Below are positions 30,644 to 45,758 of a stretch of DNA of 64,000 bases, piece by piece (the first letter of the stretch is position 1; each line of letters opens with the position of its first letter). The notes under the pieces are model-generated. The model saw nothing but the letters and a program-made list of their open reading frames with translations, was not told where the DNA came from and searched no databases. The position numbers were made by a program, and so were the translations under genes. This DNA comes from a plasmid: assembly GCF_057098645.1 (NCBI RefSeq), contig NZ_JBXSPU010000002.1; one strand, given 5' to 3'.

Positions 30644-30792
30644 AAAGCGGTAGAAAAAGTTAAGTTCCCGGTTGATCGAATGGATGCGAATCGCTGATCG
30701 GACTTCGATGCCAATCCGTGATCGAATAGAGCGGAATACGCACTCGTTATCATCAAGATAAAGAGGTTATTCTGCATGATTGTAAGGAAGAG

Positions 30793-31110
30793 ATGGGATG
30801 GGATATCTTTTTCGAACAGGACTATTTGTTGCAAGAAAACAAACTGGCAATGAAATGGACTGATCGGGATATAATGGATGTCTATTCTAAAGTATTTAAA
30901 TCAACAATTAATTTGTTTGAAAAACTTGTCGTTAATAACAAGTTAACCTTAAGAGATACTTTTGGTTGGGTAATCGTAAACCCTACATTTGAACGCCAGT
31001 TTGAATGGATTGAGTCAGAAGTATTCGAAATCGTAGGAACTCATCTTGGTTACAACGTTGCCGCTATCAGAACACAGATGGCGACCGCGTGTAGGATGAC
31101 TTTCCACTAA
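30793..31110 (+). CDS. hypothetical protein
   Basis: 105-aa ORF; start codon uncertain. Confidence 0.35.
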   Translation: MGWDIFFEQDYLLQENKLAMKWTDRDIMDVYSKVFKSTINLFEKLVVNNKLTLRDTFGWVIVNPTFERQFEWIESEVFEIVGTHLGYNVAAIRTQMATACRMTFH

Positions 31111-31169
31111 CATGCCACTGGCAAACATCTGCCAGCGGGCGGTGTTTGCATTTTACCGGAGTTTTAAAA

Positions 31170-32222: not shown

Positions 32223-32260
32223 TTATAGATGGGACGAGTTATCAGAAGGCTGAATGCCGT

Positions 32261-32530
32261 GTGACAGACTTTGCTCATCTTACGTTTTACGGTTTTCTGA
32301 GTGCAAACGGAACTGAAACTTTCGTGATTGCACAAGATGGAAATCAATATATAGGTCTGAAGCAGCATAATAATGACTATTCATTTATTTGTTATGAAGT
32401 CTGTAACAAAGATATGGAAGCCATGATTAAGGGCCTTGAATCAAAAGGATTCATGTATCAAGGGAGCATTCAATCGGCGGATGTCGAAAATGAATTTCCT
32501 GGAATTCTTTTAACAACACTTGAAAAGTAA
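32261..32530 (+). CDS. hypothetical small protein
   Basis: 89-aa ORF with GTG start; followed by hairpin element. Confidence 0.35.
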   Translation: MTDFAHLTFYGFLSANGTETFVIAQDGNQYIGLKQHNNDYSFICYEVCNKDMEAMIKGLESKGFMYQGSIQSADVENEFPGILLTTLEK

Positions 32531-32540
32531 TATTATTAAC

Positions 32541-32577
32541 CCTATCGGGAAATCTTTCCCGACGGGGAGGTTTTCCC
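32541..32577 (+). promoter_or_regulatory. GC-rich inverted-repeat element with downstream RBS-pairing segment (island hairpin family member 1)
   Basis: CCTATCGGGAAATCTTTCCCGACGGGGAGGTTTTCCC; GGTTTTCC can pair with the downstream GGAGAAAACC that contains the RBS. Confidence 0.55.
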
Positions 32578-32600
32578 ATTTCTAAATCTGGAGAAAACCT

Positions 32601-33728
32601 ATGACTTTCAATACTTCTAAACTTAATAAAGTTTCTGCAAAGGAAATCAGTGAAAACTTTATAAAAGCATATCCTGACTTGCAGGAAGGTGCTGTTATAA
32701 CAAAAATTGAAATTAGTGGGTGTCAGGGCTCTCGGCGAACTGATAAAATCGAACTGTCCTATGGCGGTGATGATATAACAGACCAGAAGAGCGTGTCTAA
32801 AAGCGAAGTTCGCTGGATAGACATAAAGGCACTGAGTTTCAAAAGCACTATCACTAGTCGAATTTCAACCCTTTGTTCACGGTTGTGCATCCGCTATAGC
32901 AATATGTGGATACTGCCAGTTGAAAGGATGGAGGAGTTTCTCGAAGAGGCACAAGAAATCGAACGTGAATTTCAAGCCGGTATCCAGAACGTGGTTGATA
33001 ACTATGACACTCATATTCAGGCTGAGAAAGATCGCAGTCCGTTGATGTCAGATTTAATTGACCAGTTGAAATTGACTAAAGATGATTTTGTTAAATCATT
33101 CCGGTTTAATCTGGCACATTTCATTCCGTTTTCACCGATTAGTGTGGAGGGGGATGAAACGCAGGACTTTTATCAAGAACAACTGATAACTGACTTGGCC
33201 GATGAAGCTATGAAGGTTTATACAAAAATCAGCAAAAATGATAATTTGCGTTCCAGCACGATTGACCGATTAAAGCAGATGCAGGATAAAATAATTAGCT
33301 TCATGTTCATTCATAAAGAGGCTGTTGTTCTTGCAGAAGCTATTAAGCATATCATGAATAATTTACCAAAAGGTGCCATTTCTTCTCCCCGTGATGTTGC
33401 GGTATTAAAGCAGTGGTTCTATTTCATGAGCGATGCGTCAATGCTGAAACGTATTATCTCCGGTGAACAAAAGGTAACCGACTGGCTGGATTCCATAACC
33501 CGGTCATTCAATATCGATTCACAGGTTACAGCGGCTAACTCTCTGAATACTGCTGAGGATGATGTTTTTTCTTCAGCAAATGTTTTCAGAGAAGACCCGG
33601 TTGAAGATCTTGAGAACAAGGCAGTGAATGCACCTGAGCCTGCTGTTGGCCCTGATGAAGATGTTTCTATTCAGGCCAGTGGTAGTAATAGAGCATTTGA
33701 CTGCGAACTCGAATTGACCGGTTGGTAA
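32601..33728 (+). CDS. hypothetical protein (375 aa) between the AAA+ and VWA genes
   Basis: ORF with good RBS; charged helical central region; no family recognised. Confidence 0.55.
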   Translation: MTFNTSKLNKVSAKEISENFIKAYPDLQEGAVITKIEISGCQGSRRTDKIELSYGGDDITDQKSVSKSEVRWIDIKALSFKSTITSRISTLCSRLCIRYSNMWILPVERMEEFLEEAQEIEREFQAGIQNVVDNYDTHIQAEKDRSPLMSDLIDQLKLTKDDFVKSFRFNLAHFIPFSPISVEGDETQDFYQEQLITDLADEAMKVYTKISKNDNLRSSTIDRLKQMQDKIISFMFIHKEAVVLAEAIKHIMNNLPKGAISSPRDVAVLKQWFYFMSDASMLKRIISGEQKVTDWLDSITRSFNIDSQVTAANSLNTAEDDVFSSANVFREDPVEDLENKAVNAPEPAVGPDEDVSIQASGSNRAFDCELELTGW

Positions 33729-33747
33729 TTTAGTCTTGTAAAAATAT

Positions 33748-33803
33748 CCCCAGATGGGTACTTCACCATCTGGGTGAGTACCCTTTATCAAATAAAGGTA
33801 CTC
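33748..33803 (+). promoter_or_regulatory. GC-rich inverted-repeat element (family member 2) plus RBS-proximal hairpin
   Basis: CCCCAGATGGGTACTTCACCATCTGGGTGAGTACCC followed by GAGTACCCTTTATCAAATAAAGGTACTC ending 3 nt before the ATG. Confidence 0.55.
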
Positions 33804-33805
33804 AA

Positions 33806-35818
33806 ATGAAATTTGATTTAAAATCTTCACCACGCCATATTCAACGCCTGACGAATATAGCCAGCGTGATAAGCGGTATAAATGGGATTTATGTAATTAT
33901 TGACAATAAGGTGAGTACACCTTATTTCAACACCCAAAACAATGTCTGTGTTTTACCTAACGGTGATTATAGCGATGAGAGATTTGTCAAGCTAATTGAA
34001 GGATTCATATGTCATGAAGCAGGACACGGTCGTTATACAGAGCATGAAGTATACCGTGAAGCTTTTGTTGGAGAATTGATCAATGCAGATGGCTTCATCA
34101 GTATTGATGATGACTTGAAGGCTGATTTTCAAAACCTAAAACAAAAGCAAAAAGCATATGCTCGTGCTTGTCGACTAAAAGGACTTATTAATCTTTTTGA
34201 TGATGTCCAGATGGAAGCGAAGACGGGTATTGATTATCAGGAGGCAAAAAAACGCCTCGCGGTGACTTATGCCTTGATGGTTGAAGCTGGGCGTATGACG
34301 GTTGATATTTCTTCAACCCCTCAAAACCCGGTTCAGTTTATTGAAATGTACCTGCTTAATACATTGCGGGTTAACGTTCTCCAACAAGAAGGGCATAAAG
34401 AAACGCTTGACCCATTTTTCGATTATGCAAAGAAAATCCTTGCACCTGTAACTTCAGAAGTCGATGAGATCATTCATCAAGCTCTAAGTTGCAAAAGTAC
34501 GCAAAATTGCGATTCTCTGGCGCGTAAAACTCTGGCTCTTTTAGAGCGTTTAAGGGATGAAGCAAAAGAGAAACAGCAAGAAGAGGAGCAGTCGAAAGAC
34601 CCGCATGACGATACAGATGAATCATCTGGCTCTGAGAATGAACCTGATACCGAACCCAATGGTGATAGCCAGGGTGAAGGGGATGGTGATAAAGAAGGTC
34701 AAGGCGATGATTCTGGTGATGGTAAGGCGCCTGCGGAAGGTAATGGGTTACCGGACCAATCCGGAGGGGATGAACAAAATGCTGAGAACTCTAACGGCGA
34801 ACCTGATGGTGAGTCTGAAGGTGATGAATCGGCGACCCCCGGCTCGGATGATGCTGACTCGACACCTTCCCTAAACGACAGTTCAAATGGAAATTCTTCT
34901 GATGGGGAAAGTAACTTTTCTCCTGAACAGTGGGATATGCTTGCCAAATTGCTGGATGATTTTTTAAACAGTGATGAGGAAAGCGAGGATTTTCATGAGG
35001 TTCTTGCAAAAGAGATCTCCGTAATTGCTGCCAGTGTGTCGGATGAGGTTAAAGCTGAATTTGGTGCAAGTGAGTGGGATGTTCCAGATTTGAACATTGA
35101 TCTGAATGTCTACAATGAAGCATTAAATATCAGCCAGACCCTTGGGGCAGATTTATCTGTTTTACAGCAGGTAAAAATGCGTGGTCAATTTAAAACCCGT
35201 GATAGAGGCTTGTCATTCGATATTAATCGACTGATCCAGTCTCCGATGGGTGTTAGGGATGTATTTCGGTCACAAAGCGAATCTAAAAACCGGGGCCACG
35301 TCGGCTTGGTCATTGTTCGTGATATTTCAGGTTCAATGAGTCTGGAACACCGTTATATCCATGCAATTAAGACTGACCTTGCATTAACTCTGGCAATTGA
35401 AGCTATTTCAAAAATGCATGTTGCTAATGTGATTTATCCGTTTGTAGACAAAGATTTTGAAGTTATCAAAACGTTTGATGAAAACGCGGAAGAGAAACTT
35501 TCAAAATTCTCACTTGGCTGCAAGGGCAATAATACCCCAACGGGTTCTGCATTAAATGCTGCTTTAGAGTTGTTACTTGAAAGCCAGTTTGACAGGAAAA
35601 TTGTTTTCCTTATTACTGATGGTTATCCGACTGAGTCGGCTTACACCATTAATGATGTTTTTTCAGTTGCTGAAAGTAACGGCATTGAAATCGCTGGTGT
35701 TGGTATTAAAACTGATGTGTTGATGGGTTTTAATGAGGGCACCTTCGTAAATGTTGATGATATTTCTTTATTGCCGAATGAGGTCAGTAAATTAGTACAT
35801 CAAATTCTATCTAATTAA
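33806..35818 (+). CDS. von Willebrand factor A (VWA) domain protein with long acidic low-complexity linker (CobT-like architecture)
   Basis: C-terminal VWA/MIDAS-like motifs (LVIVRDISGSMS, FLITDGYPT); ~120-aa D/E/G/S-rich segment; adjacent to the AAA+ gene. Confidence 0.7.
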   Translation: MKFDLKSSPRHIQRLTNIASVISGINGIYVIIDNKVSTPYFNTQNNVCVLPNGDYSDERFVKLIEGFICHEAGHGRYTEHEVYREAFVGELINADGFISIDDDLKADFQNLKQKQKAYARACRLKGLINLFDDVQMEAKTGIDYQEAKKRLAVTYALMVEAGRMTVDISSTPQNPVQFIEMYLLNTLRVNVLQQEGHKETLDPFFDYAKKILAPVTSEVDEIIHQALSCKSTQNCDSLARKTLALLERLRDEAKEKQQEEEQSKDPHDDTDESSGSENEPDTEPNGDSQGEGDGDKEGQGDDSGDGKAPAEGNGLPDQSGGDEQNAENSNGEPDGESEGDESATPGSDDADSTPSLNDSSNGNSSDGESNFSPEQWDMLAKLLDDFLNSDEESEDFHEVLAKEISVIAASVSDEVKAEFGASEWDVPDLNIDLNVYNEALNISQTLGADLSVLQQVKMRGQFKTRDRGLSFDINRLIQSPMGVRDVFRSQSESKNRGHVGLVIVRDISGSMSLEHRYIHAIKTDLALTLAIEAISKMHVANVIYPFVDKDFEVIKTFDENAEEKLSKFSLGCKGNNTPTGSALNAALELLLESQFDRKIVFLITDGYPTESAYTINDVFSVAESNGIEIAGVGIKTDVLMGFNEGTFVNVDDISLLPNEVSKLVHQILSN

Positions 35819-35824
35819 ACTCTA

Positions 35825-35868
35825 CCCAATCGGGGCAAAACGACGCCCGGTTGGGTCGCTTTGCTCCC
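35825..35868 (+). promoter_or_regulatory. GC-rich inverted-repeat element (family member 3)
   Basis: CCCAATCGGGGCAAAACGACGCCCGGTTGGGTCGCTTTGCTCCC; TTGCTCC pairs with the GGAGCAA of the downstream RBS. Confidence 0.5.
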
Positions 35869-35889
35869 TGAAGGATTAAGGAGCAATAT

Positions 35890-36111
35890 ATGACTCAGAT
35901 AAAGACTTACCGTGTCGAGTATGAAAAAGTCGGGACGATGCATCGTGTCCGTATTTTTGGTCGCATGGGTGAAATTGTCAAAAGTGAATTGCCAGAAGAA
36001 AGAATTCTCCGGGATGTATCTATACCAGAGGGTAATGGAGAAATGGCAACGTCAATGGTTGATGGTTTTATCCAGCGTCTTGAAAATATCGGCTTCAAGA
36101 CTGAAGCGTAA
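35890..36111 (+). CDS. hypothetical small protein (73 aa)
   Basis: ORF with AAGGAG RBS. Confidence 0.45.
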   Translation: MTQIKTYRVEYEKVGTMHRVRIFGRMGEIVKSELPEERILRDVSIPEGNGEMATSMVDGFIQRLENIGFKTEA

Positions 36112-36116
36112 TTGTT

Positions 36117-36203
36117 GAGGGCTCTTGTGGGCCCTCATTCTTAGATTCTGCGTTGTGGGTTTCTCCCTGTTTTCTGCATCGCAGAGGGCATTGAGAAACC
36201 CAC
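36117..36203 (+). promoter_or_regulatory. pair of inverted repeats upstream of the toprim gene
   Basis: GAGGGCTCTTGTGGGCCCTC and GTGGGTTTCTC...GAGAAACCCAC ending at the start codon. Confidence 0.5.
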
Positions 36204-36204
36204 A

Positions 36205-37458
36205 ATGCCAGATAAGAGAGAACAAATGACTTATGCATCCCAGGCTGTTAAGCGTACACCACATGAAGTCACTGACCACTTTATAAAAATGGTTCACGCT
36301 CGTATAGCGGAAGTATCAGGCTGGCGCTATGTATTCGATAGAATACCGGCATTTAAAGACGCTTGTGATAAAGCACCTGGCCAGGTTCCTTGCCCATTTA
36401 GTGGGGTCGGGAAATCAAAGTTCCGGTTCCGTAAAAAGGACCTCTTTACCGGTTGTGCCATTCACAATGATTTTCCAGTGAATGCATTTTGTGACGGTAT
36501 TGATGTATTGGCAGAGTACTACAAGCTGAGCAAGACCCAGACTTGTAAGAAGATCCTGACTGATTTCTTTGGGATGGATTTGTACGCTCCATTAACTGAT
36601 GCGGATCTCGAAAGTGAACGTCGTTATAAATCAACAGTTCGTGCAACCGAAACGCTTGACAGCGATGAAGTTGAAAAACGAGGGCGTAAACTTGAAGTGA
36701 TATATCACTATACCGGTGAAATCAAACCTGAGAGCCCTGTGTGGGTGTATCTCCGAAATCGAGGTCTTAATCGAGTTCTGAGCAACCTTCCCAAGGATTT
36801 AGGTCTGAACAAACGACTTTACTACATGGATAAGTCACTGGAAAAACCCACGATTTACCCGGGAATGATCGCAATTTATCGCGATACCCGTGGGCGTCCT
36901 CTGACAATCCACAGAACGTTCGTCGAGTTAAATGGTGATAAGGCACATGTTGAGAATCCGAAACTGATGATGAAACCGCCTGCCGATATGACTGGCGGCT
37001 CAATTCAGCTGTACGATCCACACTTCAATCCAGGTACCCGTACCTGGACGTTAGGTGTGGCTGAAGGCATAGAAAACGCGCTGTCAGTTACTGAAGCGAC
37101 TTCAACACCGTGCTGGGCCGCGAGCTCTGCCTGGTGCCTTGAAAACGTTGAAGTGCCGGATAGTCTCCTGCCTCCCCCTGGTGTGAAAGTAATACAGTTT
37201 TACATCTGGGCGGATAAGGATCTTGTGAATACAAAAGGCACTTCCCCGGGAATGGAGTCAGCTAAACGACTTCAGGAACGTATGAAAGAGTTTTTTGCAA
37301 AGCGATATCCCACTTCAGAGCTGACAATTAAAGTCTTTGAACCTGATTTCGATATTCCTGTAGGGAAGAAAGGAGTCGACTGGAACGATGTACTAAAATT
37401 AACAGGACCGGATGGATTCCCCGTAAAATGGGCTCCTGAATGTCTTGCTCAGCTTTAA
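36205..37458 (+). CDS. toprim-domain protein with N-terminal Cys/His-rich region (primase- or OLD-nuclease-like fold)
   Basis: toprim-like motifs LGVAEGIENALS (E) and IWADKD (DxD); N-terminal CPFSG...GCAIH...FCDG. Confidence 0.55.
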   Translation: MPDKREQMTYASQAVKRTPHEVTDHFIKMVHARIAEVSGWRYVFDRIPAFKDACDKAPGQVPCPFSGVGKSKFRFRKKDLFTGCAIHNDFPVNAFCDGIDVLAEYYKLSKTQTCKKILTDFFGMDLYAPLTDADLESERRYKSTVRATETLDSDEVEKRGRKLEVIYHYTGEIKPESPVWVYLRNRGLNRVLSNLPKDLGLNKRLYYMDKSLEKPTIYPGMIAIYRDTRGRPLTIHRTFVELNGDKAHVENPKLMMKPPADMTGGSIQLYDPHFNPGTRTWTLGVAEGIENALSVTEATSTPCWAASSAWCLENVEVPDSLLPPPGVKVIQFYIWADKDLVNTKGTSPGMESAKRLQERMKEFFAKRYPTSELTIKVFEPDFDIPVGKKGVDWNDVLKLTGPDGFPVKWAPECLAQL

Positions 37459-37460
37459 AT

Positions 37461-37500
37461 CCGATAACTCCCCCGCCTTTTCAGGCCGGGGTGGGTTATC
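37461..37500 (+). promoter_or_regulatory. inverted repeat downstream of toprim gene (possible terminator or processing hairpin)
   Basis: CCGATAACTCCCCCGCC...GGCCGGGGTGGGTTATC followed by T-rich sequence. Confidence 0.4.
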
Positions 37501-37732
37501 TCTTTAGTGTTTATTTACGTTAAATCCTAAACAGATAATCCGATTTCCTTCGTGAAAATCACCTGTTATTCAGGTTTTTTTTACGGCTGAGATGCTTGCT
37601 CAGTTTAATAAATGTGCGATACATCTGGCTACGGTCGGTTGTATGACATGGTATATCCATAAAACTTAAAACCCCTGACGGGAGTATTACCGTTAGGGTG
37701 ATGCTCATCGTTAAATATCGGAGAGCATTGTT

Positions 37733-38257
37733 ATGAATATTGAAAATCAAGATTTATTTAATACGTTCGCTGCTGTGATTTCATCTCATATCGTTGAGCA
37801 ACCATCTTCGTGTTATTACCTTCATGATAATGAAATTGACTTCACGATTTTAAAACACAGCATAATAGATAAAGACAAAAACCTGTTGTACGTTATTCGT
37901 CCTTCAGGAACCTGTTTGTTGCGTTGTGATAAATACTTCTTTCCGAATTACTATCTTACAAGTCGTGGAGATTATAAAGCATTTAAGTATGTGCATTTTA
38001 ATCTTGCAACACGAGAAGCGGAAGAAATCACCTGGCAGCAAGCTTTTGAAATTTTGTCCAAGCCGGGAAGACCTCCATTAAGAGGTTCACTTGGTAAATT
38101 TGATTATTTAAAACTTGTTATTGATGATCTTCGTGCGCGAGGGTATGCCGATTTCCTTCCAGCATACAACCTTGATGGCCTTCGTCACTTTGCAGTAAAG
38201 GATGAGCGACCATCACTTGTCAGTTATATCGACAATGTCATGGCACTTTGCGCATAA
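37733..38257 (+). CDS. hypothetical protein (174 aa)
   Basis: ORF with RBS; no family recognised. Confidence 0.45.
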   Translation: MNIENQDLFNTFAAVISSHIVEQPSSCYYLHDNEIDFTILKHSIIDKDKNLLYVIRPSGTCLLRCDKYFFPNYYLTSRGDYKAFKYVHFNLATREAEEITWQQAFEILSKPGRPPLRGSLGKFDYLKLVIDDLRARGYADFLPAYNLDGLRHFAVKDERPSLVSYIDNVMALCA

Positions 38258-38281
38258 AGATAACACATATTTTTACTACAT

Positions 38282-38317
38282 CCCTGATGGCACCTCCCAT
38301 CGGGGTGGCCCTCAGAG
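38282..38317 (+). promoter_or_regulatory. GC-rich inverted-repeat element (family member) interrupted by IS903B
   Basis: CCCTGATGGCACCTCCCATCGGGGTGGCCCTCAGAG; the last 9 bp are the IS903B target duplication, repeated at 39375-39383. Confidence 0.55.
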
Positions 38318-39374
38318 GGCTTTGTTGAATAAATCAGATTTCGGGTAAGTCTCCCCCGTAGCGGGTTGTGTTTTCAGGCAATACGCACGCTTTCAGGCAT
38401 ACCTGCTTTCGTCATTTTGTTCAGCGCTCGTACCAGGGCCATAGCCTCCGCAACCTGACCATCGTAGTCACGCAGCGTCAGTGAACCCCCGAACAGCTGT
38501 TTTACCCGGTACATCGCCGTTTCCGCTATCGAGCGACGGTTGTAATCTGTTGTCCATTTCCACCGCGCATTACTCCCGGTCATTCGCTGATTAGCCACTG
38601 CACGGTTACGGTCTGCATATTCACCGGGCCAGTAGCCCGCACCTTTTCGGGGAGGGATAAGCGCGCTGATTTTCTTACGCCGCAGTTCATCGTGACATAG
38701 CCGGGTATCGTAAGCGCCATCGGCGGCGGCTGACCTGATTTTCCGGTGGGTTTGCCGGATTAACCCGGGGAAGGCCTCTGAGTCCGTAACGTTGTTCAGC
38801 GACAGGTCTGCACAGATGATTTCATGTGTTTTACTGTCAACGGCGAGATGCAGCTTACGCCAGATACGGCGGCGTTCCTGGCCATGCTTTTTGACTTTCC
38901 ACTCGCCTTCACCGAAGACCTTCAGCCCGGTGGAATCAATCACCAGATGTGCGATTTCACCCCGGGTGGGCGTTTTGAAACTGACATTAACCGACTTTGC
39001 CCGCCTGCTGACACAGCTGTAATCCGGGCAGCGTAGCGGAACGTTCATCAGAGAAAAAATGGAATCAATAAAGCCCTGCGCAGCGCGCAGGGTCAGCCTG
39101 AATACGCGTTTAATGACCAGCACAGTCGTGATGGCAAGGTCAGAATAGCGCTGAGGTCTGCCTCGTGAAGAAGGTGTTGCTGACTCATACCAGGCCTGAA
39201 TAGCTTCATCATCCAGCCAGAAAGTTATGGAGCCACGGTTGATGAGGGCTTTATTGTAGGTGGGCCAGTTGGTGATTTTGAACTTTTGCTTTGCCACGGA
39301 ACGGTCTGCGTTGTCGGGAAGATGCGTGATCTGATCCTTCAACTCAGCAAAAGTTCGATTTATTCAACAAAGCC
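38318..39374 (-). mobile_element. IS903B-like element (1057 bp), copy 2
   Basis: identical transposase ORF (38374..39342) and IRs as copy 1; flanked by 9-bp direct repeat CCCTCAGAG. Confidence 0.9.
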
Positions 39375-39400
39375 CCCTCAGAGTTGAATCTGGAGGTCTT

Positions 39401-40279
39401 ATGAAATTAGCTACAGATCTGGTCAATGCGGTTCTGATAAAGAATGGCATTGTACCAACTTCCATTAATGAGTTGCCTGTAACGTCGCTGGTAAAGCCAT
39501 TGACACAAGTGCATCTCAGCCTGTATCTGAAAACAACGCATTTATCTCAGTTCGTCCCTGACTACGTTGAGTCTCTGAAAGATTGTCCGGTTTCGTATGA
39601 TATCGGCCTTGAACTTCAGCAGTGTATCAACAGTGCTGAATTGCTCTGTGAAGACATGGAGTCACTTGAGTTTATCTCTGTATGGATAGAGCTCTATACG
39701 TGTAATTCAAAGCAACAGCGGTTTGAGAAAAGTAACTTTTCTTTTCGAACTGAAGATATCGAGCTGGCTAAGATGCTGTCTTGCTCGCATGAAATCTTAA
39801 TAAGTCAGGCGGCTTGTTTCTGGCTTTTGTATTTTGAAGATTTCATGAAATATGTTCGTAATAGGCTCTGTGCATTACTCAGACAGGTTTTAATTTTGAT
39901 TGCAGGACTGCGAAATGTATACCTGCAACGGAATGAAGATCAGTTGATTAAGAGAGTTAAGCACGGGAATGAAATGCTGGAGGTGACTCTTAAAGCTGTT
40001 GCACTATGTTCAATAGAAAGGTATCTGAAATCATATGCCTCTTTACGAACAGAAGCGGCGGCTTCTGGGTTTATCAAATGCATTCAGTCTTATATCAGTA
40101 CTGGTTGGAGACATGGCTATATAGTCTGTCAATATTCAAAAAATGGACGGTCTCTTGGTAAGTCATTACCACTTTTTATAAAAGAGACATCTGAGCATAA
40201 TATACAGAAACGTGTCAATCGCCTTATATCTTCCACGATTTCGGGGCGAAATAAAGATTTAGGTCTTTACGATTTCTGA
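39401..40279 (+). CDS. hypothetical protein, tandem paralog family member 1 (292 aa)
   Basis: shares N-terminal h-x-x-A-h-L motif (LVNAVL) with the four downstream ORFs. Confidence 0.55.
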   Translation: MKLATDLVNAVLIKNGIVPTSINELPVTSLVKPLTQVHLSLYLKTTHLSQFVPDYVESLKDCPVSYDIGLELQQCINSAELLCEDMESLEFISVWIELYTCNSKQQRFEKSNFSFRTEDIELAKMLSCSHEILISQAACFWLLYFEDFMKYVRNRLCALLRQVLILIAGLRNVYLQRNEDQLIKRVKHGNEMLEVTLKAVALCSIERYLKSYASLRTEAAASGFIKCIQSYISTGWRHGYIVCQYSKNGRSLGKSLPLFIKETSEHNIQKRVNRLISSTISGRNKDLGLYDF

Positions 40280-40288
40280 TTAACATTA

Positions 40289-40325
40289 CCCATCCGGGGA
40301 TTACATCCCTGATGGGTGTAATCCC
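40289..40325 (+). promoter_or_regulatory. GC-rich hairpin element (family member)
   Basis: CCCATCCGGGGATTACATCCCTGATGGGTGTAATCCC: stem GGGGATTACATCCC/GGGTGTAATCCC, loop TGAT; GTAATCC also pairs with the downstream GGATTAC at the RBS/start. Confidence 0.6.
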
Positions 40326-40349
40326 ATTTTTTATTTAAGTGAGGATTAC

Positions 40350-41285
40350 ATGAAAATTATTGAGAAAATCATTAATGCATTTCTGATATCGCGTAAACAT
40401 TCAGTGAAGGTCAGTAATGTTATCTGCTTGAGTGGCACCGACGGTAAATTTACTGGAATATGCTGTGACGCCGATGTTTCATTTGATTTTCTTTATTCGT
40501 ATGCCCCCGCATACAGTTCAACATTTTTAGATATCCCGTTTCCTGGGTTTGAAGACCAGGACATCGCGGATTGTGTTAAATGTCAGTTAGATGTAGTTAA
40601 AAATAAACGGAATCGGTCTTTTTTAATTGACCATATTAGATTTCCAGTTTCCTCAAGGGAAGGATTCACTCTGACACGCGGTGATAGTTACGACGTGACT
40701 GAATGTGAATATAATAAGGAACGATTGCTACATCTGACCCGACAAGGACGTTTTTGTGAAGACTATCTCACGTTCAAGGATGGCCTGAGTTCCTTCTTTT
40801 CATTTGTGAATTTCGAATTACATGAAATAGTGAAGGAAGGTATACGTTTGGCACTTGATGTTTTAAACAAGATTACATCTGATCAACCAGACCGTCTTAT
40901 AAAAGACTTTAAGTATCATGATTGCTTCGGCAGTTATAATGTACAAATATTTTCTAAGGGTCTGCCAGTTGATATCCTTGAAACGATGATTGCACCTGAT
41001 AGGTTGTTGTCTAACTTGTCAGGTAGTCGTCAGATTATGAAAAATGCAAGTCGCTATCTTAAAGGCTTTGCCCTCAGTAATCGTGTTTACATGAAATACG
41101 GATGGCGTTTAGCAGATGTTGACACATCTGACTATGCGAAAGTTATGTCAGATAGAGAAATGCATGCCAGAGATGATCTTAAGGCGTTTTGCAGTGTCTT
41201 TTTTAAAGAGTGTTTCGCATCCGGAAAATATGAATACGAAGCATACCTGAGTGAAAGACAACACGCGATTCGTAACGGGTATTAA
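40350..41285 (+). CDS. hypothetical protein, tandem paralog family member 2 (311 aa)
   Basis: N-terminal IINAFL motif; size and position as other members. Confidence 0.55.
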   Translation: MKIIEKIINAFLISRKHSVKVSNVICLSGTDGKFTGICCDADVSFDFLYSYAPAYSSTFLDIPFPGFEDQDIADCVKCQLDVVKNKRNRSFLIDHIRFPVSSREGFTLTRGDSYDVTECEYNKERLLHLTRQGRFCEDYLTFKDGLSSFFSFVNFELHEIVKEGIRLALDVLNKITSDQPDRLIKDFKYHDCFGSYNVQIFSKGLPVDILETMIAPDRLLSNLSGSRQIMKNASRYLKGFALSNRVYMKYGWRLADVDTSDYAKVMSDREMHARDDLKAFCSVFFKECFASGKYEYEAYLSERQHAIRNGY

Positions 41286-41308
41286 TACTTATTATCAACT
41301 TATCTAAT

Positions 41309-41342
41309 CCCTGAGGGAATTCTTCCCTTGGGGAGGATTCCC
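41309..41342 (+). promoter_or_regulatory. GC-rich hairpin element (family member)
   Basis: CCCTGAGGGAATTCTTCCCTTGGGGAGGATTCCC; full stem pairing needs G-U wobble pairs, so an RNA-level structure is suggested. Confidence 0.6.
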
Positions 41343-41362
41343 TCTTAACCGAGGGCTACAAA

Positions 41363-42283
41363 ATGAAAGCGATTTATAAAATAATTGAAGCGATGCTGGT
41401 GAAAATGGGCTTTGAAGGTGCCGTGATCCAAAGTGTCAATCTGGAAACGGGTGTGATTCAGAGTCTAGTTGTTAAGGCTGATATTCCTGTCCGGACTTTA
41501 ATGCCGCATTTAAGGCGATATCTGCGCGATTGTGAGCCTTTATGGGGACATGACGTGGATTACCACCCTATAGCACAATATTGCTCAGGAGCTGCGTTGT
41601 TGAAGGCTGGGCCGGTCACTCTTGAAACCTTTCGGTTTGAGGTTTCAGTGTCAACTGCTCACCTGCGGCTTGTGGATGTTGAGCCGGACTGTCTAAATGA
41701 GGGTGTGAACCGTGAAAAACTGGAGTATGTATATTACCGCTCCAGCAATGCAGACAAGGATCTAATACTTGGTATGGTTGAAAAAGGACATAATTTTATC
41801 AACCATCTGCATGAACTTTTACGCTCGCGCTTATCAACGGCTTTGCCGCTGATTTTCGCAGTTACAGAAAAGATTGCGGAGAGTTCAGTTCCACAAGTAA
41901 TCACCAGCTTTTTCAGTGTTGACCATCAAATCAATGCCCAGATAGTAGTCGAACCTGTACCCGTTTCAGTCGCAGACCAGATAATTTCTGCTGACTGGAA
42001 TGTGTGTAGTGTTTCAGGAGCGGATAAGTTCCTGAACCATGTTAATCGTTATCTGTCGGGTAGGGTGATGAAGCGGCGTATTTACGCTGTTATAGAAGCT
42101 TGCGACGGTGGATCTTTATCCCTCAATGCGAACTTAGGTTGCTTTACATCACCTCTTCTCGTAACTGAGTATAAAATGGTTCAGTCACACTCTTCATCGC
42201 TTTATCGAAAGGCTATAAATAACTCGCTTAAGCAAGTTAATTCGTATGCTCCAGAGCATTCAGATGACCTGCTTTCTATGTAA
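41363..42283 (+). CDS. hypothetical protein, tandem paralog family member 3 (306 aa)
   Basis: N-terminal IIEAML motif. Confidence 0.55.
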   Translation: MKAIYKIIEAMLVKMGFEGAVIQSVNLETGVIQSLVVKADIPVRTLMPHLRRYLRDCEPLWGHDVDYHPIAQYCSGAALLKAGPVTLETFRFEVSVSTAHLRLVDVEPDCLNEGVNREKLEYVYYRSSNADKDLILGMVEKGHNFINHLHELLRSRLSTALPLIFAVTEKIAESSVPQVITSFFSVDHQINAQIVVEPVPVSVADQIISADWNVCSVSGADKFLNHVNRYLSGRVMKRRIYAVIEACDGGSLSLNANLGCFTSPLLVTEYKMVQSHSSSLYRKAINNSLKQVNSYAPEHSDDLLSM

Positions 42284-42292
42284 TTAATTTTA

Positions 42293-42330
42293 CCCATTGG
42301 GGAAGCGTATTCCCCGTGGGGGTTGCTTCC
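42293..42330 (+). promoter_or_regulatory. GC-rich hairpin element (family member)
   Basis: CCCATTGGGGAAGCGTATTCCCCGTGGGGGTTGCTTCC; CTTCCT can pair with the AGGAAG RBS 12 nt downstream. Confidence 0.6.
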
Positions 42331-42355
42331 TTTCTTCATTAAAGAGGAAGTGAAT

Positions 42356-43291
42356 ATGTTTAATGAAAGTGATGATAAAAACTTTGTTAGTGCAATGCTT
42401 AAATGTCAACTTGGCCTGAATATAAGCCAAGAGGATATTACAATATATGACAAAGAAAATCATTTTGAACAACTTTCTTTTAAAGCAAATGTGGCGCTTG
42501 ATGATTTGTTATTTTATCTGGATTTATATATATCAGAATTGATTAAGCATAATGCGCCGTATTCTGAAACTGAAGTCCTTCGGACTAAAATCAAATACTT
42601 TCTTAAAGTATATGAAAAGTCTGGTTTTCAGAACATAAGAATTCGCGGTTATCATAACGCGCACAGTACTATAGATATTGTCGATATCGCATCATTAATA
42701 TTGGCGGGGTCTGTACCGGAGTCTGAACATGATTCAATAGATCCTGTTTTAAGAAAGGAAATCTATCAAAATCGCATGAGTGTTGAGGGTAAAGTTCTCA
42801 TTGCCCGTTTTGCACTTAAGCAATTTTTCCATTCTGATTTTGGTGATTTCATCTTAGAGTTCGAGAAAAGTATCTCCAAGTGTTTGAATACTTCTCTCCA
42901 GATAATTAAATCTGTAAAGAACTCATTTAACCGTTTAGGTCAATATCAATATCAGCGTCGTGTAAAAGATGACCTGACTTTGCATCTTGATTTGAATACA
43001 GATGAATACCCGGCCTGTATGCCAGACCTTTACATCGGTTTCAAGGAGTCTGAAGGGACGACGGGAGTGTATCGCGATGATGAAAAAATCATTCGTCTTT
43101 ATACTGGCGTTAGTTCCGGAAAGGATGTTCCTGTAATGATGACCGTTCGATTCACTGGCTGTGACGGGAGTGTTTTGTCTGAATCATCGCACGGTACTTT
43201 CTGTTCCGTGGGACCTACCGGCCGAGTGCAGGTTTGTGACAGAGTTGCGTTGGTCCAAGAAGCGGTCGAAGAGTTACGGGATGTTGTTTAA
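42356..43291 (+). CDS. hypothetical protein, tandem paralog family member 4 (311 aa from MFNESDD...)
   Basis: clearly paralogous to member 5 (VEGKVLIARFALKQFF vs VDGQVLIARFALEKFW and N-terminal FVSAML vs YVRAVL); AGAGGAAG RBS 5 nt upstream. Confidence 0.6.
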   Translation: MFNESDDKNFVSAMLKCQLGLNISQEDITIYDKENHFEQLSFKANVALDDLLFYLDLYISELIKHNAPYSETEVLRTKIKYFLKVYEKSGFQNIRIRGYHNAHSTIDIVDIASLILAGSVPESEHDSIDPVLRKEIYQNRMSVEGKVLIARFALKQFFHSDFGDFILEFEKSISKCLNTSLQIIKSVKNSFNRLGQYQYQRRVKDDLTLHLDLNTDEYPACMPDLYIGFKESEGTTGVYRDDEKIIRLYTGVSSGKDVPVMMTVRFTGCDGSVLSESSHGTFCSVGPTGRVQVCDRVALVQEAVEELRDVV

Positions 43292-43407
43292 CCCTTGTTT
43301 TTTACCTCTTCATTCCAAAAAGTAACTTTGTTCTACCAAATGACCGCGCTACCTATTCTGATCAACTTGCAGGAAAGAATGGCGCAGTAGTACATATTTT
43401 TAATCCA

Positions 43408-43443
43408 CCCACTGGGGAAGTCGCTCCCCTGTGGGGCACTTCC
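43408..43443 (+). promoter_or_regulatory. GC-rich hairpin element (family member)
   Basis: CCCACTGGGGAAGTCGCTCCCCTGTGGGGCACTTCC; ACTTCCT can pair with the AGGAAGT RBS downstream. Confidence 0.6.
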
Positions 43444-43467
43444 TTTAATAATCCTGAGGAAGTGAAG

Positions 43468-44424
43468 ATGACTAATTCTACTGATAACCAGAACTACGTT
43501 CGTGCAGTACTGGCAGGCATTGGTATTGATTTTGATGAAACAGAGATGTTTATCAGTGTCTCTCATTGCCAGAGCGACGAAGTTTCGTTTACATGCAGTA
43601 TATCAGCCAGTGAGTTAAGAGAATCTGCGGGGCATTATGTGGATACTCTTAATGATACCCAACTGGCTGGCCTGGATGCGGATGCACTCAAGAAGCGACT
43701 GGTTTACTTCCTTGAGGTTTTCGACCTGGTTTCCGGTCAATATCTGGATATTTCCGGTAAACATTTCGCGACCAGCCGCTTTGAATACGACGATGTCTGT
43801 AGTGAGATCCTGAGTAACTCTGCGGACAGCGCCCAGCCAGGTGGCTATGATCGTGAAGAGTACAAAAGACTGATGGAAGTTGATGGTCAGGTTTTAATCG
43901 CCCGATTTGCACTGGAAAAATTCTGGGATACGCATTTTATTGGGCTTATCAACTATGTATCAGATGAAATAACATCCGGGCTTTATGAGGTTTATCGCAC
44001 GTTCAGTGATATAAACATGGCCGGTTATACATTTAGTGAGTATTCATATACGCGTCGTATTACCGACGAACTTAGTTTGCATATTTCACTTAAAGAGGAC
44101 GATTTCGAAGAGCAATTAACCGATTGTTATATGGATGAAACAACGCTGCCGTCTGGCAAGGTGGTTTTACGCCGTAATAATGAATCAATTATTGGGATTT
44201 ATGAAGGATATGCTTCAAAATCTTACTTTCCTATGGTTGCTAATGTTAGAGTCCTTGATACAGATGGTGAAGTTGTTACTGAACTTTACCAAGGGGTGAA
44301 TGTATCAGAATTAGCTGGTGGTCGGATTAAAATCCATGACCGTCAGGAATTAATTTCTGAGGTGTTCGCTAACTTACGTGAATTCATCCCAGCATCAGAG
44401 GATAAAATCTTTGATGCGGCATGA
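43468..44424 (+). CDS. hypothetical protein, tandem paralog family member 5 (318 aa from MTNSTDN...)
   Basis: paralog of member 4; last gene before a rho-independent terminator. Confidence 0.6.
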   Translation: MTNSTDNQNYVRAVLAGIGIDFDETEMFISVSHCQSDEVSFTCSISASELRESAGHYVDTLNDTQLAGLDADALKKRLVYFLEVFDLVSGQYLDISGKHFATSRFEYDDVCSEILSNSADSAQPGGYDREEYKRLMEVDGQVLIARFALEKFWDTHFIGLINYVSDEITSGLYEVYRTFSDINMAGYTFSEYSYTRRITDELSLHISLKEDDFEEQLTDCYMDETTLPSGKVVLRRNNESIIGIYEGYASKSYFPMVANVRVLDTDGEVVTELYQGVNVSELAGGRIKIHDRQELISEVFANLREFIPASEDKIFDAA

Positions 44425-44471
44425 GTCCTGAAGGTTGAATTATATATTTTCAGGTTTTTATACTTCTAAGA

Positions 44472-44500
44472 AGGCACGGTTATCCGTGCCTTTTTTTTTG
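44472..44500 (+). terminator. rho-independent terminator after the paralog array
   Basis: GGCACGGTTATCCGTGCC hairpin followed by T9. Confidence 0.75.
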
Positions 44501-44836
44501 CTTTCGTCAAAACTTGCATTGATTTCACAATTTTACAACGTTCTTACTGCCCTATATGTTTTACGGTACTGTACTCTTGGCACCGTTACATGTAAGCCTT
44601 CCATTACCTTCTTCAACCAAACCTAGCCTAATTTACATCCTTCCAGCTGTTTCCTTCTCTGCTTCTTTTACTCGAATGTTTTGCCCCTTGCTGACGTTTC
44701 CGGCAGCACACAGTCCGAATGCTGGAGCCTCCAAATTACTTTTTACTTCTTTTGTTTCGGTTTCGCGAAAATAGGTCTCTTATCTGAAAAATGGATCGTT
44801 AGAGATTTGTATACTGTTTAAAACAAAGGAGTCACT

Positions 44837-45106
44837 ATGCCTGCCACTACAATCCTGAGCAATAACCCTGTGAATTCGGTCTTCTCTAATGACAATAGCC
44901 ATTTCACATACCGGCATATTGATTTCAGTATTGAGCTACTGCTTTCTTCAGGAACTGACTCACAACTGGAATATCTGTTTCTCAAACCGGCGGCTGAAGT
45001 AAAGATCGATTTACAGCGCCGTTTAGCTAGTGGGGAACGTTACGTTACAACCGAGAGTTGTGACAATTTTAGCGAAGTTGATGGCTGCATGGGACACGAT
45101 TGCTGA
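44837..45106 (+). CDS. hypothetical small protein
   Basis: 89-aa ORF with AAGGAG RBS. Confidence 0.35.
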   Translation: MPATTILSNNPVNSVFSNDNSHFTYRHIDFSIELLLSSGTDSQLEYLFLKPAAEVKIDLQRRLASGERYVTTESCDNFSEVDGCMGHDC

Positions 45107-45160
45107 GGACTTTATAACGGCAGGCGTCCGATTTAATACAACACGAGACACTATCACCTA

Positions 45161-45751: not shown

Positions 45752-45758
45752 TACCCCT

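What the first reader, a model, noticed from the sequence alone, without database searches (positions are those of the whole stretch)
39401..44424. Tandem array of five divergent paralogs (290-320 aa each)
Five consecutive co-directional ORFs of similar size share a conserved N-terminal h-x-x-A-h-L motif (LVNAVL, IINAFL, IIEAML, FVSAML, YVRAVL). Members 4 and 5 are clearly homologous along their length (VEGKVLIARFALKQFF vs VDGQVLIARFALEKFW; RTKIKYFLKVYE vs KKRLVYFLEVFD). Each is preceded by a hairpin element and the array ends in a strong terminator. Tandem, rapidly diverged paralogs are typical of arms-race loci such as immunity or anti-defence protein arrays and specificity modules.
Basis: seen in the sequence. 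Interest (0 to 1): 0.7.

Follow-up and report, generated by a model that had tools for sequence, protein, structure and literature searches.

The report
Five NgrC-like paralogs, IncHI plasmid operon
Five neighbouring genes on a multidrug-resistance IncHI plasmid are real, anciently duplicated copies of an uncharacterised plasmid protein (NgrC-like, no relative of known structure or function found), and each is preceded by a conserved two-hairpin RNA element predicted to hide its ribosome-binding site; their function is still unknown, but they do not behave like a fast-evolving arms-race locus.

Summary
Five co-directional genes (292-318 aa) sit at 39401-44424 on an IncHI1 plasmid backbone. Profile comparisons and two independent AlphaFold models show that all five share one fold. 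They match no Pfam, NCBIfam, PHROG, PADLOC or PDB entry. The only relatives in 1.84 billion proteins are the same family. The nearest outside relatives are 'NgrC' proteins, a single-copy backbone gene in other MOBH plasmids (IncC, pAQU1, pNDM-MAR type), near a Toprim gene in IncC and pAQU1.

The arms-race reading is weakly supported. The same five genes, in the same order and with nearly the same sizes, occur in four IncHI lineages and more than 1400 plasmids. dN/dS is 0.14-0.24, like neighbouring genes. Copy number does vary between deep lineages (2, 4 or 5).

The array is the distal end of an operon of about 15 kb (AAA-MoxR, DUF3150, VWA, Toprim and others). Nearly every gap between cistrons carries a GC-rich hairpin followed by a hairpin that pairs with the Shine-Dalgarno sequence. 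A third segment could free the Shine-Dalgarno sequence by alternative pairing. The same element occurs in IncC and pAQU1. The A5/NgrC branch is acidic and ends in Ala-Ala.

Function is inferred only: probably an accessory protein complex for plasmid DNA handling or establishment.

The parts
39401..40279 (+). A1, 292 aa. NgrC-like paralog of clade I, near-neutral charge.
   Evidence: ORF and RefSeq CDS WP_000762007. hhalign to A2+A3 gives E 1e-8. AF2 pLDDT 85. Fold match to A5.
40350..41285 (+). A2, 311 aa. Clade I paralog.
   Evidence: The A2-A3 comparison gives 93.6% probability.
41363..42283 (+). A3, 306 aa. Clade I paralog.
42356..43291 (+). A4, 311 aa. Clade II paralog, moderately acidic. 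The start is ATG 42356.
   Evidence: A4-A5 hhalign E 1e-50. Charge.
43468..44424 (+). A5, 318 aa. Clade II paralog and the most NgrC-like member. Net charge is -31. It carries the loop motif S-H-C-Q-S-D and a C-terminal Ala-Ala.
   Evidence: AF2 pLDDT 90, pTM 0.83. Foldseek matches to NgrC at E 1e-9 to 1e-6. Charge and motifs.
40288..40349 (+). Intercistronic element between A1 and A2. H1 is at 40288-40317. H2 is at 40318-40349 and pairs GTAATCCC with the SD GAGGATTAC. An alternative 12-bp hairpin plus T-run lies at 40297-40325.
   Evidence: Three-way covariation with IncHI2: GGGGATCAC / GTGATCCC / GAGGATCAC.
41302..41355 (+). Intercistronic element between A2 and A3. H1 is at 41302-41338. H2 is at 41340-41355 and pairs CCCTC with GAGGG.
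42293..42353 (+). Intercistronic element between A3 and A4. H1 is at 42293-42320. H2 is at 42323-42353 and pairs TTGCTTCCTTT with AGAGGAAGTGA.
43408..43464 (+). Intercistronic element before A5. H1 is at 43408-43435 and H2 at 43437-43464. It is a diverged copy of the A3-to-A4 element.
   Evidence: Direct repeats D2, D4 and D10 at 71-77% identity. Folding.
43319..43329 (.). Near-palindromic motif AAAGTAACTTT in the long gap between A4 and A5. It is a possible operator or internal-promoter mark.
   Evidence: One search finds 12 strand-matches in the window against 4.4 +/- 2.2 expected. The same motif forms a perfect inverted repeat in the operon leader upstream of h291 in the reference plasmid.
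44468..44504 (+). Intrinsic terminator that closes the operon. The stem contains GGCACGG..CCGTGCC and is followed by T9.
   Evidence: It is conserved in IncHI1B, IncHI2 and HIx.
38282..38317 (+). 5' part of the element between U174 and A1: H1 and the first half of H2. It is cut by IS903B. The remainder lies at 39375-39400.
   Evidence: Comparison with the intact reference gap.
38318..39374 (-). IS903B inserted inside H2 of the gap between U174 and A1. The 9-bp target duplication CCCTCAGAG lies at 38309-38317 and 39375-39383.
30743..38257 (+). Upstream cistrons of the same operon. They are the h328 3' fragment, AAA_5/MoxR-like ATPase 31146-32222, h89 32261-32530, DUF3150 32601-33728, VWA 33806-35818, h73 35890-36111, DUF7146/Toprim_3 36205-37458 and U174 37733-38257. 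Bipartite elements lie at 32540-32600, 33749-33804, 35824-35886 and 36112-36207.

Best explanation
**Shown.**
- The five ORFs are expressed-type genes under purifying selection. They are true ancient paralogs.
- They are an IncHI-specific expansion, from 2 up to 5 copies, of the uncharacterised NgrC-like family. That family is a single-copy backbone gene in other MOBH conjugative plasmids.
- The family splits into two clades. Clade I (A1, A2, A3) is near-neutral in charge. Clade II (A4, A5) is acidic. A5 keeps two NgrC features: the S-x-C-Q-G-D loop and a C-terminal Ala-Ala.
- The proteins have a two-lobed alpha/beta fold joined by a helix of about 45 residues. No residue that looks catalytic is conserved across all five.
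- They are the last cistrons of a co-directional operon of about 15 kb: h291, AAA-MoxR, DUF3150, VWA, Toprim, U174, then A1-A5. The operon ends at a strong terminator.
- Almost every cistron has its Shine-Dalgarno sequence paired in hairpin H2. H2 sits directly after a GC-rich hairpin H1. The 5' arm and loop of H1 mimic the SD and can pair with the anti-SD instead.

**Inferred.**
- The H1/H2 pair is a bistable switch that keeps each cistron translationally silent. Something must perturb the base of H1 to open it. Candidates are upstream translation or termination about 10 nt away, or a trans-acting factor.
- If so, the cistrons would be made together and in fixed proportions.
- The proteins are non-enzymatic subunits of a hetero-oligomer built on an ancestral pair of a clade-I and a clade-II subunit.
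- The acidic, Ala-Ala-ended subunit may be short-lived, because its end resembles a ClpXP degron.
- The complex acts with the Toprim and AAA/VWA proteins of the same operon on plasmid DNA, in replication priming, establishment or protection after transfer.

The confidence value applies to the statement as a whole. The 'shown' part alone I rate at about 0.9, and the functional inference at about 0.3.
For: **Identity and paralogy:**

**Conservation of the array:**. Purifying selection.

**Narrow orphan family:** only 74 hits in 1.84e9 representatives, all of this family.

**Link to NgrC:**
- Foldseek gives E 1e-9 to 1e-6 with TM about 0.5-0.65 over the full length.
- hhalign gives 73% probability, E 3e-5, over 257 collinear columns.
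- The motif and the C-terminal AA are shared.
- NgrC lies next to a Toprim gene in IncC and pAQU1, and the IncHI Toprim is 34% identical to theirs.

**Two clades:** the two-gene lineage has exactly one member of each clade.

**Operon and RNA elements:**. The same element occurs in IncC and pAQU1.

**Charge and lack of conserved catalytic residues:**
Against: - Hetero-oligomerisation was not modelled.
- The Ala-Ala end as a degron is an analogy with SsrA/ClpX rules (my own knowledge), not a test.
- A ribosome stopped about 10 nt upstream would reach only the first few bases of H1, so coupling by termination alone is doubtful.
- In one search, only about 16 of 26 elements flipped to the alternative fold when 7 nt of H1 were blocked.
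- NgrC and A5 keep Cys/His/Asp-rich motifs that could be a catalytic or metal site. That would argue against 'non-enzymatic' for that branch.
- In this particular plasmid the array is cut off from its native promoter by IS903B and by an IS21-mediated inversion. It may therefore be poorly expressed here.
Confidence: 0.4

Rival explanations
1. The array is an anti-defence or establishment array. Each paralog is a decoy or inhibitor aimed at a different host defence (restriction, CRISPR or other), and duplication diversified the targets.
For: - The paralogs are extremely divergent, and copy number differs between deep lineages (2, 4 or 5), with a lineage-specific duplication in L013.
- A5 and NgrC are acidic (net -19 to -31), as DNA mimics are.
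- NgrC in IncC, pAQU1 and pNDM-MAR-type plasmids shares an operon with DNA methyltransferase genes that look orphan (no partner endonuclease annotated in the stretches read).
- One Foldseek hit is a fusion to an ArdC-type DUF1738 domain.
Against: - dN/dS is 0.14-0.24, like most of the neighbouring backbone genes.
- The five-gene set is fixed in order and size across four lineages and more than 1400 plasmids.
- No match to any anti-restriction Pfam family.
- No Frpo-type single-strand promoter. The hairpins are SD-sequestering RNA structures.
- In IncHI the array follows Tra2, whereas oriT is in Tra1. That placement is from the R27 literature as I remember it and was not verified here.
- A1-A3 are not acidic.
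Confidence: 0.25
2. A5 and NgrC are an enzyme or metal-binding protein that uses the conserved Cys/Asp loop, and in NgrC a His-rich R-N-S-H-G-H-x-Y-S-H motif. A1-A4 are degenerate pseudo-enzyme copies that regulate or scaffold it.
For: - NgrC has invariant Y-C-Q-G-D-G and R-N-S-x-G-x-x-Y-S-H-x-N motifs.
- The A5 clade keeps S-H-C-Q-G/S-D and G-K-H. A4 keeps G-Y-H-N-A-H-S. Clade I has lost these motifs.
Against: - No significant structural match to any enzyme.
- The motifs are only partly kept, even within the A5 clade. P0053, for example, lacks them.
Confidence: 0.12
3. The hairpins are not translational switches. H1 would be an mRNA-stabilising or RNase-processing element (REP-like or RNase III-like) or a weak attenuator, and the H2/SD pairing would be incidental.
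For: - H1 is conserved in sequence as well as structure: (T/A)AACCC..GGGG..CCCC..GGG. That pattern suits a protein or RNase recognition site.
- The alternative X:anti-SD helix is followed by a U-rich tract, and one instance is flagged as a terminator.
Against: - The SD is paired in all but two of the 33 gaps in which an SD was identified, across six lineages, with median P(unpaired) 0.01. H2 ends 0-7 nt before the ATG.
- The anti-SD, the SD and the H1 arm co-vary three ways.
- In the 64-kb window the element is found only immediately upstream of start codons of this operon.
Confidence: 0.2
4. The ORFs are non-functional or decaying filler, and their similarity is a leftover of old duplications.
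For: - No known function or domain.
- In this plasmid the array is separated from its promoter by IS elements.
Against: - The reading frames are intact and lengths are conserved in four lineages that have diverged to 40-64% identity.
- dN/dS is well below 1.
- The AF2 models are confident.
- SDs and regulatory elements are conserved.
Confidence: 0.03

Closest known systems
NgrC (an annotation name only, for example pAQU1 ORF131 and IncC WP_000595210). It is an uncharacterised backbone protein of MOBH conjugative plasmids.
   Same: - The predicted fold matches over the full length (Foldseek E 1e-9 to 1e-6, TM about 0.5-0.65).
- There is weak but collinear profile similarity (E 3e-5).
- Sizes are similar (263-311 aa).
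- The charge is acidic.
- The S-x-C-Q-G-D loop and the C-terminal Ala-Ala are shared with A5.
- The gene lies in a long co-directional operon, near a homologous Toprim gene in IncC and pAQU1. It is preceded by the same two-hairpin element in both.
   Different: - NgrC was single-copy in the plasmids examined; IncHI has 2-5 copies.
- Four of the five IncHI copies have lost the NgrC motifs and the Ala-Ala end.
- Sequence identity is about 10-15%, below what HMMER detects in a database search.
- NgrC itself has no known function, so the match names the family but does not explain it.
Anti-defence gene islands in plasmid leading regions (Samuel et al. 2024, PMC11541004), such as ArdA, KlcA, PsiB, SSB and orphan methyltransferases.
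   Same: - Both are co-directional runs of small to medium genes of unknown function on conjugative plasmids.
- In IncC, pAQU1 and pNDM-MAR-type plasmids, NgrC relatives share operons with DNA methyltransferases that look orphan.
   Different: - No homology to any known anti-defence family.
- No single-strand promoter hairpins.
- Not adjacent to oriT in IncHI, according to the R27 literature (not tested here).
- The content is fixed rather than variable, and the genes are under purifying selection.
Translational coupling through SD-sequestering hairpins, for example R1 tap-repA, ColIb-P9 repY-repZ and the RNA phage MS2 cistrons (from my own knowledge).
   Same: - The SD of the downstream cistron is locked in a local hairpin.
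- An alternative pairing can release it.
   Different: - Here the module is bipartite (H1 plus H2) with an SD-mimic in H1.
- It is repeated before eleven of the fifteen cistron junctions of the operon.
- It is conserved across plasmid families.
- The upstream stop codon is usually 8-28 nt before H1 and at least 30 nt before H2, so a terminating ribosome cannot open H2 directly.
MoxR-type AAA+ ATPase / VWA protein pairs, for example RavA-ViaA and CbbQ-CbbO (from my own knowledge).
   Same: An AAA_5 ATPase and a VWA protein are encoded in the same operon as the array. Such pairs remodel or assemble partner protein complexes.
   Different: No evidence links the array proteins to them other than sharing an operon. 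In IncC the AAA/VWA genes and NgrC lie in different operons.

Membership tests
NgrC-like uncharacterised plasmid protein family | Sequence-profile similarity over the full length. | tested here: inconclusive
   hhalign of the 40-sequence family against 5 NgrC sequences gives 73% probability, E 3e-5, over 257 collinear columns. HMMER against 1.84e9 proteins did not reach NgrC.
NgrC-like uncharacterised plasmid protein family | Same three-dimensional fold. | tested here: met
   The A5 model hits several proteins named NgrC at E 1e-9 to 1e-6, TM about 0.5-0.65, over 320-333 aligned columns. The A1 model also hits an NgrC at E 3e-3.
NgrC-like uncharacterised plasmid protein family | Genomic setting: a MOBH plasmid backbone operon near a DUF7146/Toprim gene. 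| tested here: met
   The setting holds in IncC (L015) and pAQU1 (L014) as well as IncHI. The Toprim proteins are 34% identical. In the pNDM-MAR-type plasmid no Toprim gene is annotated near NgrC.
NgrC-like uncharacterised plasmid protein family | Signature motifs: the Y/H-C-Q-G-D loop and the C-terminal Ala-Ala. | tested here: inconclusive
   Present in most of the A5 clade (P0053 lacks the loop). Absent from A1-A4.
Leading-region anti-defence genes | Homology to a known anti-defence family such as ArdA, ArdB/KlcA, ArdC, PsiB or Acr. | tested here: not met
Leading-region anti-defence genes | Position within the first-transferred region next to oriT, with single-strand promoters. | not tested
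   oriT was not located with the tools. The array follows trhN and trhI of Tra2. From the R27 literature as I recall it, oriT lies in Tra1. The hairpins present are SD-sequestering RNA elements, not Frpo-like promoters.
Leading-region anti-defence genes / arms-race arrays | Rapid turnover or positive selection between close relatives. | tested here: not met
   Pairwise NG86 dN/dS is 0.14-0.24, against 0.03-0.21 for most neighbouring genes. Gene content is identical in four lineages. Site-level tests were not done.
Polymorphic-toxin immunity arrays | An adjacent toxin gene, and small immunity proteins that vary between strains. | tested here: not met
   No protein with a recognisable toxin domain is annotated in the operon. 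The proteins are about 300 aa and conserved.
Known anti-phage defence systems (PADLOC) | A match to a defence-system protein model. | tested here: not met
   0 families for all five proteins.
SD-sequestering translational control elements | The SD is base-paired in a stable local hairpin immediately upstream of the start codon, and the structure is conserved. | tested here: met
   32 of 34 gaps in six lineages show the two-hairpin fold. Median P(unpaired SD) is 0.01 and mean MFE z is -4.4. Compensatory changes are seen.
SD-sequestering translational control elements | A demonstrated trigger that opens the hairpin, such as an upstream ribosome, a factor or temperature. | not testable with these tools
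   Only in-silico blocking of the base of H1 was possible. About 16 of 26 elements refold into the alternative helix, which in many cases leaves the SD unpaired.
Rfam RNA families | A match at the gathering score. | tested here: not met
   No family reaches its gathering score in 30600-46200.

The most novel reading that the evidence does not exclude
Two linked claims. First, the two-hairpin module is a previously undescribed class of bistable intercistronic riboregulator shared by MOBH conjugative plasmids (IncHI, IncC, pAQU1). It consists of an SD-mimic in H1, an anti-SD and the SD, and it gates translation of whole backbone operons. Second, the NgrC-like proteins it controls form a new-fold hetero-oligomer, with a protease-timed acidic subunit, that is needed when the plasmid enters or establishes in a new host.
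Probability: 0.3. Interest if true: 0.8.

Novelty: new variant of a known kind. Interest (0 to 1): 0.6.

Why it matters
IncHI plasmids spread typhoid multidrug resistance, mcr-1 and tet(X4), and IncC plasmids are also major resistance carriers. About half of their conserved backbone has no known function.

This work defines one such block:
- A protein family with no structural or sequence relative of known function.
- It is found in more than 1400 IncHI plasmids as a 2-5 gene array.
- Through NgrC, it is found in about another 1400 MOBH plasmids as a single gene.

It also identifies a repeated RNA element that probably controls how the whole operon is translated. If the proteins act in establishment or counter-defence, or if the RNA switch is real, both would be new handles on plasmid spread. 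Both are directly testable with deletions and reporter fusions in R27 or pVCR94.

Tried and rejected
**Family searches with no result**
- NCBIfam, PHROGs and PADLOC for the five proteins gave nothing.
- Pfam gave nothing for the five proteins or for NgrC.
- A PDB sequence-profile search gave 0 hits.

**Extra paralogs on the same plasmid**
- Other ~300-aa hypothetical proteins (h291, h328, d302, d357), plus U174 and d196, were tested as possible paralogs.
- hhalign gave E 0.1-0.9, so this was rejected. These comparisons also served as negative controls.
- U174 was compared with the ~185-aa neighbours of NgrC in IncC and pAQU1. There was no BLASTP similarity.

**Other operon proteins**
- NCBIfam gave no hit and PHROGs only three marginal matches (E 0.004-0.008) to families of unknown function.

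**RNA searches**
- Rfam gave no family at its gathering score.
- A sigma-70 promoter scan of the region found no more sites than in shuffled sequence (14 against 17.4).

**Literature**
- Searches for NgrC, DUF1828/1829, DUF3150, IncHI TraDIS, and intercistronic hairpins in conjugative plasmids found no functional information.
- One 'ngrC' hit was a misspelling of nqrC.

**Other dead ends**
- The IncHI1 proteomics paper (PMC5390554) was read, but its per-gene table was not consulted.
- L006, the contig of the distant hit P0026, gave no ORF of 100 aa or more and was not pursued.
- Megablast of the two-copy and four-copy lineages against PLSDB gave no match.
- The thermometer idea for H2 was considered and dropped. 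The stems are 8-11 bp (-7 to -17 kcal/mol), and IncC, which carries the same element, is not known to me to be thermosensitive.

Full report
**Where the window comes from**

The region 39401-44424 is 100% identical to IncHI1 plasmids such as pYPE10-190k-tetX4 and pHCM1 of S. Typhi CT18. In total 283 plasmids carry it at the DNA level. All five ORFs are annotated 'hypothetical protein'.

**Check of the observation**

The five ORFs exist on the + strand. SD spacing shows that A4 starts at ATG 42356 and A5 at ATG 43468.

Pairwise BLASTP gives A4~A5 at 27% identity over 314 aa (E 3e-38) and A2~A3 at 28% over 101 aa (E 3e-8). A1 has only weak but collinear matches.

I collected orthologues from IncHI1B (L003), IncHI2 (L002) and a fourth lineage, HIx (L004). 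Profile-profile comparison then links all five:

| Comparison | Probability | E-value | Columns |
|---|---|---|---|
| A4 vs A5 | 100% | 1.5e-50 | 304 |
| A2 vs A3 | 93.6% | 2e-7 | 236 |
| A1 vs A2+A3 | 95.6% | 1e-8 | 239 |
| A1+A2+A3 vs A4+A5 | 94.3% | 1e-7 | 196, collinear |

Reversed profiles and six unrelated proteins of the same plasmid score E 0.009-0.9.

A 20-sequence alignment needs only 340 columns.

**Structure**

- AF2 on A5, using a 40-sequence family alignment, gives pLDDT 90 and pTM 0.83.
- AF2 on A1, using only A1/A2/A3-type sequences, gives pLDDT 85 and pTM 0.78.
- The two models have the same order of secondary-structure elements, including a central helix of about 45 residues.
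- Foldseek with the A1 model retrieves the AFDB entry that had matched window A5 at 100% identity (V9SIJ7; E 2.4e-7, TM 0.56, 316 columns).

Paralogy is therefore confirmed by sequence and, independently, by structure.

**What the family is**

An exhaustive HMMER search of 1.84 billion representatives with the family profile finds only 74 proteins. All are full-length members or fragments of this same family.

Foldseek against AFDB50 goes further. After the family itself come about 35 full-length hits (E 1e-9 to 1e-4, TM 0.4-0.65). Some are named NgrC. The rest are uncharacterised 250-311 aa proteins, mostly of Enterobacterales and Pasteurellaceae.

NgrC is ORF131 of pAQU1 (PMC4036041; L014 45729-46634). 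It occurs in 1429 plasmids, including IncC and pNDM-MAR-type Klebsiella plasmids. It is a single gene in every one I examined.

Family-versus-NgrC hhalign gives 73% probability, E 3e-5, over 257 collinear columns.

Three further points tie NgrC to the array:
- In IncC and pAQU1, NgrC lies a gene or two from a Toprim protein whose C-terminal half is 34% identical to the IncHI Toprim.
- NgrC and the A5 clade share an S-(H/Y)-C-Q-G-D hairpin loop, an acidic charge (net -19 to -31) and a C-terminal Ala-Ala. A1-A4 lack the loop and the Ala-Ala end.
- No functional literature on NgrC was found.

**Evolution**

The same five genes, in the same order and with nearly the same lengths, occur in IncHI1A, IncHI1B, IncHI2 and HIx. 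A tblastn search with A5 finds 1406 plasmids.

Amino-acid identity between IncHI1A and IncHI2 orthologues:

| Gene | Identity (%) |
|---|---|
| A1-A5 | 47-64 |
| VWA | 63 |
| U174 | 68 |
| Toprim | 78 |

NG86 dN/dS between IncHI1A and IncHI1B is 0.14-0.24 for the array. Fifteen of the sixteen neighbouring genes I tested give 0.03-0.21; the sixteenth, a 73-aa gene, gives 0.81 on very few sites. This is purifying selection with no gene-level arms-race signal.

Deeper lineages differ in copy number at the same syntenic slot:
- L008-L011 carry two genes, one of A1 type and one of A5 type.
- L013 carries four: an A2 type, an A3 type and two A5-type copies.

A neighbour-joining tree gives clade I (A1, with A2+A3) and clade II (A4, A5). 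NgrC is nearest to clade II.

DNA-level repeats between the A3-to-A4 and A4-to-A5 junctions (71-77% identity) show that the regulatory element was duplicated together with the gene.

**Operon and RNA elements**

In the reference plasmid the array is the end of a co-directional block after trhI. The order is h291, h125, h328, AAA_5, h89, DUF3150, VWA, h73, DUF7146/Toprim_3, U174, then A1-A5. A strong terminator closes it.

Eleven of the fifteen cistron junctions in this block show the same bipartite element:
- H1 is a GC-rich hairpin that usually begins 5-25 nt (most often about 10) after the stop codon. Its consensus is (T/A)ACCC-N-GGGG...CCCC-N-GGG.
- H2 follows immediately. It pairs an anti-SD with the SD and ends 0-7 nt before the ATG.

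I folded 34 gaps from six lineages:
- 32 show the two-hairpin fold with a buried SD.
- The mean MFE z-score is -4.4.
- The median probability that the SD is unpaired is 0.01.

The 5' arm and loop of H1 are as complementary to the anti-SD as the SD itself. This holds at z < -2 in 28 of 31 elements. Three-way co-variation is visible. For example, the A1-to-A2 element reads GGGGATTAC / GTAATCCC / GAGGATTAC in IncHI1A and GGGGATCAC / GTGATCCC / GAGGATCAC in IncHI2.

Blocking 7 nt at the base of H1 in silico flips about 16 of 26 elements into the alternative helix. In many of these the SD is left unpaired, and a U-rich tract often follows the helix.

Further points on the element:
- RNAalifold recovers H1 across 24 instances, with double changes in 7 of 10 pairs. 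Orthologous sets show both hairpins with 2-3 compensatory pairs each.
- The same element precedes cistrons in IncC and pAQU1, including the NgrC genes themselves.
- A strict scan of the whole 64-kb window finds it only in this operon.
- Rfam has no matching family.

**Interpretation**

*Shown.* The five genes are real and are ancient paralogs of an orphan NgrC-like family. They form the distal part of a backbone operon. The SD of almost every cistron is structurally sequestered by a conserved element that has an alternative fold.

*Inferred.* The cistrons are translated in a gated, coordinated way. The proteins have no catalytic-looking residue conserved across the family. They descend from a pair of one clade-I and one clade-II gene. 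I therefore infer that they form a hetero-oligomeric, non-enzymatic assembly that works with the Toprim and AAA/VWA proteins on plasmid DNA. The Ala-Ala end may make the A5/NgrC subunit a ClpXP substrate. This is an analogy with SsrA rules from my own knowledge, not a test.

*Main rival.* An anti-defence role is not excluded. NgrC relatives share operons with DNA methyltransferases that look orphan, no partner endonuclease being annotated in the stretches read. A5 is acidic. Copy number varies between lineages.

**State of this particular plasmid**

- IS903B (38318-39374, 9-bp duplication CCCTCAGAG) sits inside H2 of the gap between U174 and A1.
- Two inverted IS21-family copies have inverted the segment 30743-46076 relative to the reference plasmid. 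This truncates h328 and separates the operon from its leader.

Expression of the array here may therefore depend on fortuitous promoters.

Noticed in passing
window 38318-39374 (target duplications at 38309-38317 and 39375-39383): An IS903B copy is inserted exactly inside the SD-sequestering hairpin (H2) of the gap between U174 and A1. It has a 9-bp target duplication CCCTCAGAG. It separates A1-A5 from the upstream cistrons in this plasmid only.
   Followed up: partly
window about 28105-30742 (+) and about 46077-48700 (-): Two inverted copies of an IS21-family element (548-aa and 332-aa ORFs) flank the segment 30743-46076. That segment is inverted relative to the reference plasmid pYPE10. The inversion truncates h328 and cuts the operon off from its leader downstream of trhI.
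   Followed up: partly
window 17952, 26001, 26138, 34908, 39729, 43319: The near-palindromic motif AAGT(A/T)ACTTT is over-represented: 12 strand-matches against 4.4 +/- 2.2 expected. In the reference plasmid it forms a perfect inverted repeat (AAGTAACTTTATAAAAGTTACTT) in the leader upstream of the first operon gene. It also sits in the long gap between A4 and A5 in all lineages. It may be an operator for an unknown regulator.
   Followed up: partly
L015 482-552, 11296-11371, 11927-12003, 15868-15942; L014 45173-45258, 45643-45731, 46635-46719: The same two-hairpin intercistronic element occurs in IncC and pAQU1 backbone operons, with the H1 consensus TAACCC..GGGG..CCCC..GGG followed by an anti-SD:SD hairpin. 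It is therefore a feature of MOBH plasmids, not of the array alone.
   Followed up: partly
window 44416-44421 (last two codons of A5); NgrC in L014 and L015: All A5-clade proteins and all NgrC proteins end in Ala, and most end in Ala-Ala (DAA, VAA, QAA, IAA, KAA, EAA). This resembles the ClpX-recognised end of the SsrA tag. A1-A4 do not have it.
   Followed up: no
L010 10001-11762; L013 3714-7709: Deep IncHI-like lineages that are absent from PLSDB carry only two family members (one of each clade) or four (with a private duplication of the A5 type) at the same syntenic slot.
   Followed up: partly
L015 1897-3522; L014 34173-35063; L016 3608-4816: In IncC, pAQU1 and a pNDM-MAR-type plasmid, the NgrC gene shares its co-directional block with a DNA methyltransferase gene. 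No partner endonuclease is annotated in the stretches read, so these look like orphan methyltransferases, a hallmark of establishment or anti-restriction regions. The IncHI operon has no such gene.
   Followed up: no
window 40297-40335: Inside the A1-to-A2 element, an alternative 12-bp hairpin (GGGATTACATCC/GGGTGTAATCCC) is followed by ATTTTTTATT. It scores as an intrinsic terminator and excludes both H1 and H2. It could be an attenuator conformation.
   Followed up: partly
L006 (GCA_002230475.1 contig, 11025 bases): The contig said to encode the distant hit P0026 (40% identity to A5) shows no ORF of 100 aa or more, and the gene does not translate to the query. This is unexplained. Possible causes are a different genetic code or a wrong coordinate.
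   Followed up: no
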